Translations under genes and position numbers: made by a program
Notes under the pieces: generated by a model
The model's input: only the letters and a program-made list of their open reading frames with translations
Database searches by the model: none
Told to the model about the DNA's origin: nothing
DNA from: Escherichia phage BEU5
Sequence record: OM632664.1
Strand: one strand, 5' to 3'
DNA length: 64,000 bases
Shown: in pieces, positions 17,697 through 18,461 of the stretch
Layout: each line of letters begins with the position of its first letter
Position numbering within the stretch: position 1 is the stretch's first letter

Positions 17697-17771
17697 GATG
17701 GTGTAGCTCAGTAGTAGAGCAGTTGGCTGTTAACCAACTGGTCGATGGTTCGAATCCATCCACCATCGCCA
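17697..17771 (+). tRNA. tRNA-Asn (anticodon GTT)
   Basis: manual cloverleaf: 7-bp acceptor gatggtg/caccatc, D-stem gctc/gagc, anticodon stem gttgg/ccaac with loop ctGTTaa, T-arm gatgg-ttcgaat-ccatc, encoded CCA. Confidence 0.8.
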
Positions 17772-17776
17772 AATTT

Positions 17777-17866
17777 GGAAGGTTGTCAGAGAGGCCGATT
17801 GTACCTGACTTGAAATCAGGAGGCGCAGAGATGCACCCGAAGGTTCGAATCCTTCACCTTCCACCA
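17777..17866 (+). tRNA. tRNA-Ser (anticodon TGA), type II with long variable arm
   Basis: acceptor ggaaggt/accttcc, anticodon stem cctga/tcagg with loop ctTGAaa, long variable arm, T-arm gaagg-ttcgaat-ccttc, encoded CCA. Confidence 0.8.
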
Positions 17867-17870
17867 AATT

Positions 17871-17946
17871 GCTGGTTTAGCTCAGTTGGTAGAGCAATTG
17901 CTTTGTAAGCAATGGGTCAATGGTTCAAGTCCATTAACCAGCACCA
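17871..17946 (+). tRNA. tRNA-Thr (anticodon TGT)
   Basis: acceptor gctggtt/aaccagc, D-arm gctc-agttggta-gagc, anticodon stem attgc/gcaat with loop ttTGTaa, T-arm aatgg-ttcaagt-ccatt, encoded CCA. Confidence 0.8.
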
Positions 17947-17958
17947 ATACAGGTTATT

Positions 17959-18030
17959 AGTGAACACACTATGGAACCTCCCAGCTTCCTCCAGATGTAC
18001 GGCAATACATTAGCTGGTAGTGTGTTCACT
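17959..18030 (+). ncRNA. long imperfect hairpin element A immediately 3' of tRNA-Thr
   Basis: 12-bp perfect inverted repeat agtgaacacact / agtgtgttcact enclosing 48 nt that contain nested stems (ccagct/agctgg, atgta/tacat). Confidence 0.4.
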
Positions 18031-18113
18031 GATAGGTTGTACTATCACAGTCCAGACAATATCTGCGTGACTTAAAAAACAGATGGAGCCAGGTGGAATC
18101 CCTGGCAACTAAT

Positions 18114-18179
18114 TCCGGTGTAGGTACTAGTGTCGTGCACGGCATGAGTGTTCTGGTTCGAGTCCAGACGCCGGAACCA
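18114..18179 (+). tRNA. atypical tRNA-like element (possible degenerate or unusual tRNA), identity unassigned
   Basis: T-arm tctgg-ttcgagt-ccaga and 7-bp acceptor tccggtg/cgccgga with discriminator and CCA, but only about 31 nt where D- and anticodon arms should be; no canonical anticodon arm found by hand. Confidence 0.3.
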
Positions 18180-18186
18180 ATTCGTA

Positions 18187-18282
18187 AGAACTCTTATTTT
18201 GGTTACCGCAAAAGAAGTGAAAAATGTTGTGGAAAACTACTTCCCAATTAGGTTCGAATCCTAAACCAGAGTAAGAGTTCTT
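18187..18282 (+). ncRNA. long-stem element B with internal tRNA-like T-arm
   Basis: 11-bp inverted repeat aagaactctta / taagagttctt enclosing about 74 nt including ttagg-ttcgaat-cctaa and acceptor-like tttggtt/aaccaga; does not fold as a canonical tRNA. Confidence 0.35.
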
Positions 18283-18298
18283 TCGAATTGAAGATTTA

Positions 18299-18375
18299 CA
18301 GGATATAGCTCAGTTTGGTAGAGCGTCTGCTTTGGGAGCAGAATGTCGTAGGTTCGAATCCTGCTATCCTGACCA
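18299..18375 (+). tRNA. tRNA-Pro (anticodon TGG)
   Basis: acceptor caggata/tatcctg (C1-G72), D-arm gctc-agtttggta-gagc, anticodon stem tctgc/gcaga with loop ttTGGga, T-arm gtagg-ttcgaat-cctgc, encoded CCA. Confidence 0.75.
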
Positions 18376-18377
18376 AA

Positions 18378-18461
18378 TTAGTGCTCTGGTATATTACTTT
18401 TAACCCCTAGGTTATGCCACAGTAATACAACAGATTGGGTCATCTGAAACCAGAGCACTAA
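18378..18461 (+). ncRNA. long-stem element C immediately 3' of tRNA-Pro
   Basis: 13-bp perfect inverted repeat ttagtgctctggt / accagagcactaa enclosing 58 nt with two internal hairpins (attact/agtaat and cagat/atctg). Confidence 0.4.

What the first reader, a model, noticed from the sequence alone, without database searches (positions are those of the whole stretch)
17697..18461. tRNA cluster interleaved with long perfect-stem hairpin elements
Four canonical tRNAs (Asn-GTT, Ser-TGA, Thr-TGT, Pro-TGG) were folded by hand. After tRNA-Thr, after the atypical tRNA-like element and after tRNA-Pro, within 2-12 nt of the CCA end, there are long inverted repeats with 11-13 bp perfect stems: agtgaacacact/agtgtgttcact, aagaactctta/taagagttctt, ttagtgctctggt/accagagcactaa. 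Each encloses 48-74 nt that contain further nested hairpins, and one contains a T-arm-like ttagg-ttcgaat-cctaa. None has a T-run, so they are not ordinary terminators. The regular tRNA-then-long-stem arrangement suggests processed small stable RNAs, RNase III or RNase E processing modules, or degenerate tRNA derivatives.
Basis: seen in the sequence. Interest (0 to 1): 0.6.

Follow-up and report, generated by a model that had tools for sequence, protein, structure and literature searches.

The report
Structured small RNAs between phage tRNAs
In this N4-type coliphage, the gaps between the tRNA genes hold unannotated folded RNA elements closed by long stems, which are conserved and shuffled among many gut-bacteria phages and probably work like the unexplained small stable RNAs of phage T4.

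Summary
The window is an N4-type phage, 99% identical to N4. The finding lies in a 1.3 kb ORF-free gap between gp47 and gp48.

- **tRNAs:** ARAGORN and Rfam confirm the four tRNAs.
- **Inverted repeats:** They make up 3 of only 5 such repeats in 64 kb; about 1.6 per window are expected by chance.
- **Position:** Each stem starts 1-3 nt after, or overlapping, a CCA end.
- **Not tRNAs, terminators or any Rfam family:** They are RNA structures under selection on the tRNA strand.
- **Hairpin 2:** It recurs in G7C, Pylas-like and T4-like Yersinia phages. 13 of its 25 stem pairs changed on both sides and still pair, while the interior stays about 90% identical. A T-arm abuts the 3' stem strand as in a tRNA.
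- **Hairpin 1:** Its stem is a diverged copy of a stem scaffold that carries at least four unrelated interiors in related phages, usually 5-10 nt after a tRNA CCA.
- **Hairpin 3:** The only relative is in phage Pollock, again directly after a tRNA.

Most likely these are co-transcribed small RNAs released by tRNA-processing enzymes and RNase III, comparable to T4 RNAC/RNAD but not homologous. Expression, processing and function are untested.

The parts
17697..17771 (+). tRNA-Asn (GTT), CCA encoded
   Evidence: ARAGORN; Rfam RF00005, 75.2 bits
17777..17866 (+). tRNA-Ser (TGA), long variable arm, CCA encoded
   Evidence: ARAGORN; Rfam, 50.5 bits
17871..17946 (+). tRNA-Thr (TGT), CCA encoded
   Evidence: ARAGORN; Rfam, 75.2 bits
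17948..18042 (+). Hairpin 1. A long-stem cassette with arms 17948-17971/18018-18041 (24 nt) and a 46 nt interior holding a nested hairpin. It starts 1 nt after the tRNA-Thr CCA.
   Evidence: Inverted repeat I2. Fold -40.9 kcal/mol, z -6.0. The stem is a diverged form of scaffold A of Gamaleyavirus phages, with 3 compensatory and 3 G-U-preserving changes against pSb-1. A strain SNP at 18031 turns a U-G pair into U-A.
18047..18108 (+). 'Mid' element: two short hairpins joined by an A-rich linker. It is a separate module, not one of the long-stem hairpins.
   Evidence: 85-96% identical copies occur in Gamaleyavirus, DS8, KP13-27, SopranoGao and E. coli prophages, always in ORF-free islands. Pair changes AGTC/GACT to AGCC/GGCT and CCAGG/CCTGG to CCGG/CCGG were seen by eye. 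No Rfam match.
18115..18179 (+). tRNA-like RNA. It has a 7 bp acceptor stem, a T-arm (TCTGG TTCGAGT CCAGA) and a discriminator A plus CCA. One roughly 10 bp hairpin with a TGCA loop replaces the D and anticodon arms.
   Evidence: Not called by ARAGORN or Rfam. Called tRNA-Undet by tRNAscan-SE in the SPSP, AL25 and Jura annotations. Fold. Compensatory changes occur in the T-stem and central hairpin against KP8 and UViG_24308 and against SPSP. It is 96% identical to Gamaleyavirus copies.
18178..18290 (+). Hairpin 2. A long-stem tRNA-like RNA with a terminal helix 18178-18204/18264-18290 (26-27 bp), an inner 6 bp helix with a 16-18 nt loop, and a T-arm at 18248-18264 abutting the 3' strand of the terminal helix.
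   Evidence: Inverted repeat I1. z -8.8. Homologues in 4 phage clades. 91% of cells paired against 35-50% in slid controls, and 14 pairs changed on both sides. Interior 0.915 against stem 0.685 mean identity. Covariance model R1.
18299..18375 (+). tRNA-Pro (TGG), CCA encoded
   Evidence: ARAGORN; Rfam, 71.1 bits
18378..18462 (+). Hairpin 3. A 13 bp perfect terminal stem (18378-18390/18449-18461) encloses two nested hairpins. It starts 2 nt after the tRNA-Pro CCA.
   Evidence: Inverted repeat I4. z -5.0. The only outside relative is phage Pollock (91% identical), where it directly follows tRNA-Leu. The changes that fall in predicted helices are C-to-T, keeping G-U pairs; others fall outside them, and there are no double changes.
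18470..18571 (+). Further module (d1), closed by an 8 bp stem GTGGGATG/CATCCCAC.
   Evidence: 93-97% identical in Gamaleyavirus and about 82% in 150 kb myoviruses. In Klebsiella phage KaOmega it lies between tRNA-Glu and tRNA-Asp. Its fold z-score is only -1.2, so the structure is unproven.
18576..18821 (+). Further untranslated sequence (d2, d3), partly conserved in Pollock and Gamaleyavirus. Structure not resolved.
   Evidence: blastn matches of 76-82%. No ORF of 60 aa or more.
18822..18851 (+). Intrinsic terminator (12 bp GC-rich stem plus T-run), the likely 3' end of the RNA operon
   Evidence: Terminator scan. Annotated as a terminator in the AL25 and Jura records.

Best explanation
The stretch 17697-18851 is one untranslated stable-RNA operon of an N4-type phage. 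It holds four tRNAs and one tRNA-like RNA that lacks the D arm. These alternate with non-tRNA structured RNAs, and three of those are closed by long terminal helices that begin at or within 3 nt of the preceding CCA.

**Shown**
- The helices are real RNA structures on the tRNA strand, maintained by selection.
- They are modules that also occur in other phage genera and families.

**Inferred**
- The array is transcribed as one precursor.
- RNase P cuts at each tRNA 5' end.
- RNase E or exonucleases define the CCA ends.
- RNase III can cut the 24-27 bp helices.
- The terminal helices then shield the released RNAs of about 85-115 nt from exonucleases, so they accumulate as small stable RNAs. The tRNAs therefore act as punctuation for releasing them, as T4 RNAD and RNAC follow tRNA-Arg.

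**Function of the interiors**
- Hairpin 2 has a function of its own. Its interior is nearly invariant, and its T-arm stacks on the terminal helix as in a tRNA. It most likely binds a protein that recognises the tRNA acceptor/T-arm stack, such as a tRNA-processing or modification enzyme or a translation factor.
- The roles of the interiors of hairpins 1 and 3 are unknown.
For: **Real and non-random.**

**Untranslated context.**
- There is no ORF of 60 aa or more between 17545 and 18877 apart from one that overlaps tRNAs.
- There is a single terminator, at 18822-18851.

**Hairpin 2.**
- 36 pairs are 91.3% paired, against 35-50% when partners are slid. 14 pairs changed on both sides, and 0 of 500 shuffles reach this.
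- Conserved G-U pairs and a more stable + strand fold point to RNA of tRNA polarity.
- Interior identity is 83-92% between clades while stem identity is 47-63%.

**Hairpin 1.** Its stem shows 3 compensatory and 3 wobble-preserving changes against pSb-1. The sister cassette is 94.6% paired with 4 double changes.

**Strain variation.** All five helix SNPs within the N4 group keep or improve pairing.

**Conservation.** The modules are 84-96% identical between N4 and Gamaleyavirus, while the flanking genes are 62-78% identical.

**tRNA adjacency in relatives**.
- Pollock: tRNA-Leu then hairpin 3.
- ECBP1: tRNA-Ala then a cassette.
- UViG_24308: tRNA-Gly then a cassette ('CCA-ACATC-CTATCA').
- Moonfish: the tRNA-like element then hairpin 2.

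**Precedent.**
- T4 rnaD and rnaC lie directly after tRNA-Arg.
- Both are expressed RNAs of unknown function; RNAC was confirmed by northern blot (PMC9697503, PMC3014915).
- In E. coli, tRNA 3' trailer removal involves RNases E and III plus exonucleases (PMC10879173, discussion).
Against: - No expression, end-mapping or stability data exist for N4, so processing and accumulation are inferred.
- No promoter was identified upstream of tRNA-Asn.
- Hairpin 3 has only one diverged relative and no double compensatory change. Its 13 bp stem is short for RNase III.
- In Yersinia phage TG1 the hairpin 2 homologue is not next to a tRNA, so tRNA adjacency is not obligatory.
- For scaffold A the stem is conserved and the interior is replaced. 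That pattern fits a role for the stem alone, or recombination at conserved linkers, as well as it fits functional interiors.
- No partner or target was found. The interiors have no above-chance complementarity to the rest of the phage genome.
Confidence: 0.6

Rival explanations
1. The elements are pure processing punctuation. The long helices exist only as RNase III (or RNase E-guiding) sites that separate the tRNAs and define their 3' trailers, much as the stems flanking rRNAs in rRNA operons or the T7 R-sites do. The enclosed sequences are spacers without a function of their own.
For: - The stems of 24-27 bp reach two helical turns.
- They start at or beside the CCA.
- The scaffold A stem is almost invariant, including a conserved U-U mismatch, while at least four unrelated interiors sit inside it.
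- The related scaffold B carries 72 different interiors that are no more structured than shuffled sequence.
- RNase III takes part in E. coli tRNA 3' trailer removal (PMC10879173).
Against: - Hairpin 2 shows the opposite pattern: the interior is 0.915 identical and the stem 0.685. Its loops are invariant across four clades, including T4-like phages.
- G7C, U1G and pSb-1 keep the modules although ARAGORN finds no tRNA in those regions.
- The hairpin 2 homologue in TG1 is not adjacent to a tRNA.
- E. coli matures CCA-encoding tRNAs without such stems.
Confidence: 0.2
2. The elements are DNA-level features. They could be decayed tRNA genes, or conserved linker sequences at which mosaic phage genomes recombine, with the inverted repeats as by-products. 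They could also be small mobile palindromic (MITE-like) elements. None of these requires an RNA function.
For: - Modules are shuffled between unrelated phages, and their presence is patchy.
- Recombination junctions fall in conserved T-arms, as in Moonfish and in N4 tRNA-Pro against Pollock tRNA-Leu.
- Interiors are swapped inside identical stems at the same locus.
- An HNH endonuclease gene sits next to the region in G7C.
Against: - Compensatory double changes and conserved G-U pairs would be A-C mismatches on the other strand. The + strand fold is 8-10 kcal/mol more stable for hairpins 1 and 2.
- The modules are more conserved than the flanking protein genes, which is not expected for decaying pseudogenes.
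- The three N4 stems differ in sequence, so they are not copies of one mobile element.
Confidence: 0.1
3. The elements are self-cleaving ribozymes placed after tRNAs to cut the 3' trailer, like the HDV-like theta ribozymes of gut phages.
For: They sit in the same position: a structured RNA within a few nucleotides of a phage tRNA 3' end (PMC10879173).
Against: - An Rfam scan at E up to 10 over 17500-18950 gives no HDV-like, hammerhead, twister, pistol or hatchet match.
- The folds are simple long terminal helices with nested hairpins, not a nested double pseudoknot.
- Only 4.5% of theta-associated tRNAs encode CCA (PMC10879173), whereas all N4 tRNAs here encode it.
Confidence: 0.03
4. The elements are transcription terminators or attenuators, or they encode small proteins.
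For: - They are stable hairpins.
- Short ORFs of 31-52 aa overlap the region, and one deposited annotation lists hypothetical proteins there.
- The hairpin 2 interior carries a GGAG/GAAG...AUG motif that resembles a ribosome-binding site.
Against: - No T-run follows any of the three stems.
- The reading frame after the AUG in hairpin 2 has 16, 12 and 7 codons in N4, G7C and TG1, and the frame shifts, while the nucleotides stay conserved.
- Interiors are replaced wholesale between relatives.
Confidence: 0.03

Closest known systems
Phage T4 small stable RNAs RNAC (species 1) and RNAD (species 2)
   Same: - They are untranslated RNAs of about 120-140 nt that lie directly after a tRNA (tRNA-Arg) in the phage tRNA cluster, on the same strand.
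- RNAC ends in a T-arm-like hairpin, CCGGG TTCGAAT CCCGG.
- They are expressed, but their function has been unknown for 50 years (PMC3014915, PMC9697503).
- From my own knowledge, not checked here: species 1 RNA is cleaved by RNase III in vitro (Paddock et al. 1976).
   Different: - No sequence homology was found. Model R1 scores T4 rnaC only 17.6 bits, and the alignment is unconvincing.
- Yersinia phage TG1 carries a true rnaC homologue (78% identical) in addition to a hairpin 2 homologue at another position. The two are therefore separate families.
- T4 RNAC has no 25 bp terminal helix.
HDV-like theta ribozymes next to phage tRNAs (Kienbeck et al. 2024, PMC10879173)
   Same: They are structured RNAs within about 5 nt of the 3' end of phage tRNAs, proposed to serve tRNA 3' end formation.
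   Different: - Theta ribozymes form a double pseudoknot with a catalytic C and occur in phages of Bacteroidota and Bacillota. Their associated tRNAs mostly lack an encoded CCA.
- The elements here are long plain helices with nested hairpins in a coliphage whose tRNAs encode CCA. No ribozyme model matches them.
RNase III processing stems (rRNA operon stems; T7 R1.1-type sites; PMC8708148)
   Same: - They are long near-perfect helices formed by sequences flanking a cargo RNA in an untranslated polycistronic transcript.
- The helix length of 24-27 bp is adequate for E. coli RNase III.
- A conserved internal U-U mismatch in scaffold A recalls the internal loops of T7 sites.
   Different: - Cleavage has not been shown.
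- The cargo is a 46-75 nt RNA rather than an rRNA or an mRNA end.
- The hairpin 3 stem is only 13 bp.
tRNA-punctuated release of hairpin RNAs (murine gammaherpesvirus 68 tRNA-pre-miRNA units; the mitochondrial tRNA punctuation model). This comparison rests on my own knowledge.
   Same: A tRNA or tRNA-like element immediately upstream of a hairpin RNA means that tRNA-processing enzymes create the ends of the hairpin RNA.
   Different: Those systems are eukaryotic and use tRNase Z and Dicer. Here it is only an analogy of logic and has not been tested.
Bacterial Y RNA-like YrlA (RF02553)
   Same: A long terminal stem is combined with a tRNA-like module that contains a canonical T-arm.
   Different: - The Rfam model scores 17-19 bits against a gathering score of 69, and it matches only T-arms.
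- In hairpin 2 the terminal helix takes the place of the acceptor stem. From my own knowledge, in YrlA it takes the place of the anticodon stem.
- From my own knowledge, E. coli K-12 has no Ro protein.

Membership tests
tRNA (RF00005) | Cloverleaf with D arm, anticodon arm with a 7 nt loop, T arm and acceptor stem, recognised by ARAGORN or the Rfam model | tested here: met
   Met for the four tRNAs. Not met for hairpins 1-3 or for 18115-18179, for which there is no call at E up to 10. The latter has only an acceptor stem, a T arm and ACCA.
T4 RNAC (species 1 RNA) family | Sequence or structure homology to T4 rnaC | tested here: not met
   blastn finds only the shared T-loop 11-mer. Model R1 scores 17.6 bits with a poor alignment. 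TG1 has a separate 78% identical rnaC homologue at L004 3540-3683 as well as the hairpin 2 homologue at 1971-2094.
T4 RNAC/RNAD-like kind (small stable RNAs embedded in a phage tRNA cluster) | Untranslated structured RNA on the tRNA strand, directly flanked by tRNAs, inside the tRNA transcription unit | tested here: met
   Position and strand are shown.
T4 RNAC/RNAD-like kind (small stable RNAs embedded in a phage tRNA cluster) | Accumulates as a discrete stable RNA in infected cells | not testable with these tools
   No N4 small-RNA data were found.
E. coli RNase III substrate | About two helical turns (20 bp or more) of near-continuous double-stranded RNA | tested here: met
   Hairpin 1 has 24 bp with 1 mismatch and 3 G-U pairs. 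Hairpin 2 has 26-27 bp with 1 mismatch. Hairpin 3 has only 13 bp, so it does not meet this feature.
E. coli RNase III substrate | Actual cleavage by RNase III | not testable with these tools
   This needs an in vitro cleavage assay or a comparison of rnc mutant and wild-type cells.
HDV-like / theta ribozyme | Nested double pseudoknot (P1, P1.1, P2, P3, P4) with a catalytic cytosine | tested here: not met
   No HDV-type Rfam match at E up to 10. The predicted and covariation-supported folds are plain terminal helices.
Intrinsic terminator | GC-rich hairpin followed by a T-run | tested here: not met
   The scan finds only 18822-18851 on the + strand within the array. The sequences after the three stems are CTATCAC, AAGATTT and CCTAATG.
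YrlA / Y RNA-like (RF02553) | Match to the family model at its gathering score | tested here: not met
   19.5 and 17.3 bits against a gathering score of 69.
Prophage anti-sRNAs AgvB/AsxR (RF02702, RF02703) | Match to the Rfam models: a conserved 3' region of about 42 nt and a variable 5' seed | tested here: not met
   No hits in the window, in related loci or in the E. coli HS late leader. The architecture differs from that described in PMC4104026.

The most novel reading that the evidence does not exclude
The N4 hairpins belong to a large, undescribed class of phage RNA cassettes. Each is a conserved long terminal stem, often placed right after a tRNA or after the late terminator tR' of lambdoid prophages, that displays an exchangeable interior of 45-75 nt. 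The interiors would be the functional, fast-evolving parts: tRNA mimics or decoys that bind host tRNA-processing, translation or defence factors. The stem plus the tRNA-processing enzymes would be a shared expression and release platform. Hairpin 2 would then be a tRNA mimic that targets a specific host or phage protein and has spread between N4-like and T4-like phages.
Probability: 0.25. Interest if true: 0.8.

Novelty: new variant of a known kind. Interest (0 to 1): 0.6.

Why it matters
N4 is a classic model phage, yet this 1.3 kb region is annotated at most with tRNAs. The small stable RNAs of T4 have lacked a function for fifty years.

- **More candidates for one question.** Comparable but non-homologous structured RNAs sit in the tRNA arrays of N4-like, rV5-like and T4-like phages. 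Some are better conserved than the neighbouring protein genes. Together they give several independent, genetically tractable candidates for what such RNAs do.
- **A natural release platform.** The scaffold-with-exchangeable-interior pattern suggests a tRNA-plus-stem system for expressing small RNAs. That bears on phage-host conflict and on engineered tRNA-guide arrays.
- **Annotation.** These modules should be modelled as RNA families, so that gene callers stop placing spurious small ORFs on them.

Tried and rejected
1. **Known RNA families.** Rfam at gathering and at E up to 10 on the window, on nine related loci and on the E. coli HS late leader gave only tRNAs.
2. **Homology of hairpin 2 to T4 rnaC or rnaD.** Rejected.
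3. **Ribozymes such as theta or hammerhead.** No model match, and the fold is wrong.
4. **Terminators.** No T-runs.
5. **Small proteins.** The SD-AUG-like motif in hairpin 2 is followed by non-conserved frames of 16, 12 and 7 codons.
6. **Antisense regulators of phage genes.** Complementarity of all interiors to the rest of the window is at chance level.
7. **Host origin of hairpin 2.** The core pattern is absent from one genome per bacterial species and nearly absent from metagenomes. The only real hits are the same phages.
8. **One repeated mobile element.** The three N4 stems are unrelated in sequence.
9. **Sigma-70 promoter upstream of tRNA-Asn.** None was found, so the promoter is unidentified.
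10. **Literature.** Searches for N4 small-RNA data and for the conserved sequences as text strings found nothing relevant.
11. **First IMG/VR pattern.** AAAGRAGTGAAAAATGTT returned mostly ribosome-binding sites of unrelated genes. Only 8 of 46 hits were true.
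Full report
**Identity of the window and the locus**

The 1.3 kb around the finding is 100% identical to Escherichia phages BEU13/42/44/51 and 99.0% identical to phage N4. In the N4 record the region lies between gp47 and gp48, just upstream of the virion RNA polymerase gene on the opposite strand, and carries no annotation at all. Newer relatives annotate four tRNAs and a 'tRNA-Undet'. 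Between 17545 and 18877 there is no ORF of 60 aa or more except one that overlaps tRNAs. The only intrinsic terminator on the + strand within this array is at 18822-18851. The finding is therefore the 5' two-thirds of a longer untranslated array.

**Checking the observation**

- ARAGORN and Rfam agree on tRNA-Asn, Ser, Thr and Pro.
- The three inverted repeats are present.
- Only five perfect inverted repeats of at least 11 nt with a 3-100 nt spacer occur in the 64 kb window. Three of them lie here. Shuffles give 1.56 per whole window.
- As RNA, the + strand folds have z-scores of -6.0, -8.8 and -5.0. For hairpins 1 and 2 the + strand is 8-10 kcal/mol more stable than the - strand because of G-U pairs.
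- The stems begin 1 nt after the tRNA-Thr CCA, overlap the CCA of the tRNA-like element, and begin 2 nt after the tRNA-Pro CCA.
- No T-run follows any of the three stems.

**Hairpin 2 (18178-18290)**

blastn finds it in the following phages:
- G7C and Moonfish (Gamaleyavirus);
- Pylas, KpCHEMY26, FSL SP-058 and FSL SP-076 (Humphriesvirinae);
- the T4-like Yersinia phages TG1 and phiR1-RT.

All copies fold with a 25-27 bp terminal helix. On a 10-sequence alignment (A2):
- The proposed 36 pairs are 91.3% paired, against 35-50% when partners are slid by 1-3 columns.
- 14 pairs, 13 of them among the 25 pairs of the terminal helix, changed on both sides.
- No shuffle out of 500 reaches the observed values.
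- Several positions hold conserved G-U pairs, which would be A-C mismatches on the other strand.

The interior is much better conserved than the stem: 0.915 against 0.685 mean pairwise identity overall. Between N4 and Yersinia phage TG1 the figures are 0.87 and 0.55.

The architecture runs: terminal helix, then a single-stranded UACCGNGAAAG, then a 6 bp helix with a 16-18 nt loop, then CCAA, then a T-arm (TTAGG TTCRAHT CCTAA) that runs straight into the 3' strand of the terminal helix. That last junction matches how a tRNA T-stem runs into the acceptor stem. Hairpin 2 is thus a tRNA-like RNA without a D arm, with a 26 bp 'acceptor' helix and no free CCA end.

An apparent ribosome-binding site plus AUG sits inside it. 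The frames that follow are not conserved (16, 12 and 7 codons), so it is not coding.

**Relation to T4 RNAC**

T4 places rnaD and rnaC directly after tRNA-Arg, and rnaC ends in a T-arm-like hairpin. The hairpin 2 covariance model R1 scores rnaC only 17.6 bits, with an unconvincing alignment. Yersinia phage TG1 carries a true rnaC homologue (78% identical, L004 3540-3683) as well as the hairpin 2 homologue (L004 1971-2094). Hairpin 2 is therefore a separate family of the same general kind. The function of RNAC and RNAD is still unknown (PMC3014915, PMC9697503).

**Hairpin 1 (17948-18042) and scaffold A**

Gamaleyavirus phages and Pollock carry a 116 nt long-stem element whose 3' arm matches that of hairpin 1. 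That element is 94.6% paired, with four double changes among four sequences. Against pSb-1, the 24 stem positions of hairpin 1 compare as follows:
- 14 are identical pairs;
- 3 are one-sided changes that keep pairing through G-U;
- 3 are compensatory double changes.

A gapped pattern search for the outer stem (CTATCAATGAGT...CTCTTTGATAG) in IMG/VR showed that this scaffold A, including a conserved U-U mismatch, encloses at least four unrelated interiors:
- the U1G type (also in pSb-1, ECBP1 and Pollock);
- the hairpin 2 type (Pylas group);
- a KP8 type;
- a UViG_24308 type.

The cassette starts 5-10 nt after a tRNA or tRNA-like CCA ('CCA-ACATC-CTATCA'). The upstream tRNA is tRNA-Ala in ECBP1 and tRNA-Gly in UViG_24308. 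A small hairpin plus T-run often follows the cassette. The interior of N4 hairpin 1 is a fifth type, found only in the N4 group.

**Hairpin 3 (18378-18462)**

Its only relative outside the N4 group is in phage Pollock (91% identical), where it directly follows tRNA-Leu instead of tRNA-Pro. The changes that fall in predicted helices are C-to-T, keeping G-U pairs. Others fall outside helices or, in the middle hairpin, alter the predicted fold. There are no double changes. This is the least supported of the three hairpins.

**The tRNA-like element and the 'mid' element**

The element at 18115-18179 has a 7 bp acceptor stem, a canonical T-arm and ACCA. A single hairpin with a tetraloop replaces the D and anticodon arms. 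Compared with KP8, UViG_24308 and SPSP, the T-stem and central hairpin show compensatory changes.

The 60 nt 'mid' element upstream of it (18047-18108) is 85-96% identical in several unrelated phages:
- DS8;
- KP13-27;
- SopranoGao;
- T7-like Klebsiella phages;
- E. coli prophages.

It always lies in ORF-free islands of about 1 kb that share further shuffled modules.

**Evidence that the modules are under selection**

Between N4 and Gamaleyavirus the modules are 84-96% identical, while the flanking protein genes are 62-78% identical. All five helix substitutions seen among N4-group strains keep or improve pairing. G7C, U1G and pSb-1 retain modules although ARAGORN finds no tRNA in those regions. 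Further downstream, the d1 module has a homologue between tRNA-Glu and tRNA-Asp in the rV5-like Klebsiella phage KaOmega.

**Mechanism**

What is shown is structure, strand, conservation, modularity and recurrent placement next to tRNA 3' ends.

What is inferred is the processing route. A single precursor would be transcribed, and RNase P would cut at the tRNA 5' ends. RNase E or exonucleases would act at the CCA ends, and RNase III would cut the 24-27 bp helices. E. coli uses RNases E and III plus exonucleases on tRNA trailers (PMC10879173), and RNase III recognises long helices (PMC8708148). The released RNAs of 85-115 nt would be protected by their terminal helices.

The conservation pattern of hairpin 2 argues that its interior has a function of its own, most plausibly binding a protein that recognises the acceptor/T-arm stack. 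No target was found by complementarity, and there is no host homologue.

The main rival is that the stems are only RNase III punctuation. That fits scaffold A but not hairpin 2. DNA-level explanations are disfavoured by the strand-specific G-U pairs and the compensatory changes. Ribozyme, terminator and coding explanations were tested and not supported.

**Wider context noticed on the way**

- It carries 72 distinct interiors in at least 42 unrelated groups.
- In an E. coli HS lambdoid prophage it lies immediately after the tR'-like terminator, between the Q antiterminator gene and the holin gene. This is the 'moron' region known to hold prophage small RNAs (PMC4104026).
- It matches no Rfam family.
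- Hybrid A/B stems occur in KP13-27 and others.
- Nine of 121 copies lie 3-7 nt from a same-strand tRNA.

This suggests that the N4 hairpins belong to a broad, uncurated class of long-stem cassettes in enterobacterial phages. I did not establish what these cassettes do.

**Verdict**

The elements are genuine, conserved, unannotated structured RNAs of the kind exemplified by T4 RNAC/RNAD, but they are not homologous to those RNAs and have a distinctive long-stem, modular architecture. Expression, processing and function remain to be shown experimentally.

Noticed in passing
L196 about 3915-4040 (E. coli HS prophage); L077-L195 (IMG/VR): A conserved stem CACAACAGGTAAGAGCA...TGCTCTTWCCGTTGTGG, followed by the hairpin GCGCAGGCTGATGCGC, encloses hypervariable interiors of 43-62 nt. 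There are 72 distinct interiors in at least 42 unrelated groups, and they are no more structured than shuffled sequence. It occurs in at least 120 viral contigs. In a lambdoid prophage it lies right after the tR'-like terminator, between the Q antiterminator and holin genes. It has no Rfam family.
   Followed up: partly
window 18047-18108: A 60 nt element (two small hairpins joined by UAAAAAACAGAUGG) is 85-96% identical in unrelated phages (N4-like, DS8, KP13-27, SopranoGao, T7-like Klebsiella phages) and in 15 E. coli genomes. It always lies in ORF-free islands of about 1 kb. Its function is unknown.
   Followed up: partly
window 18470-18571; L063 2001-2094: The module downstream of hairpin 3 is 93-97% identical in Gamaleyavirus. 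An approximately 82% identical copy lies between tRNA-Glu and tRNA-Asp in the tRNA array of the rV5-like Klebsiella phage KaOmega. Its fold z-score is weak (-1.2).
   Followed up: partly
window 660, 10888, 18577, 23270, 30078, 47457, 52116, 57419, 63725: The motif ATTTGAACCAGGTA (up to 2 mismatches) occurs 9 times on both strands, against 0.7 expected. Most copies are inside coding regions and one is inside the RNA array. No explanation was found.
   Followed up: partly
L060 about 1440-1500 (Shigella phage Moonfish); window 18352-18375 compared with L008 1477-1500: Recombination junctions between modules fall inside conserved T-arms. The Moonfish tRNA-like element joins a pSb-1-type 5' part to the N4-type 3' end. 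The 3' ends of N4 tRNA-Pro and Pollock tRNA-Leu are alike upstream of hairpin 3.
   Followed up: no
window 17381-17545: A small ORF (54 aa) encodes a very hydrophobic peptide just upstream of the RNA array. The region is 70-75% identical at nucleotide level in Gamaleyavirus and is followed by a hairpin at 17556-17581.
   Followed up: no
L004 3540-3683 (Yersinia phage TG1): An unannotated homologue of T4 rnaC (78% identical) lies just upstream of tRNA-Trp.
   Followed up: no
L060 2863-3111 (Moonfish) and window 19248-19733: The accessory region between the RNA array and the virion RNA polymerase gene holds a Thoeris anti-defence 2-like gene in Moonfish and an N4 gp49/Sf6 gene 66 family gene. 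This locus may be an accessory or anti-defence hot spot.
   Followed up: no
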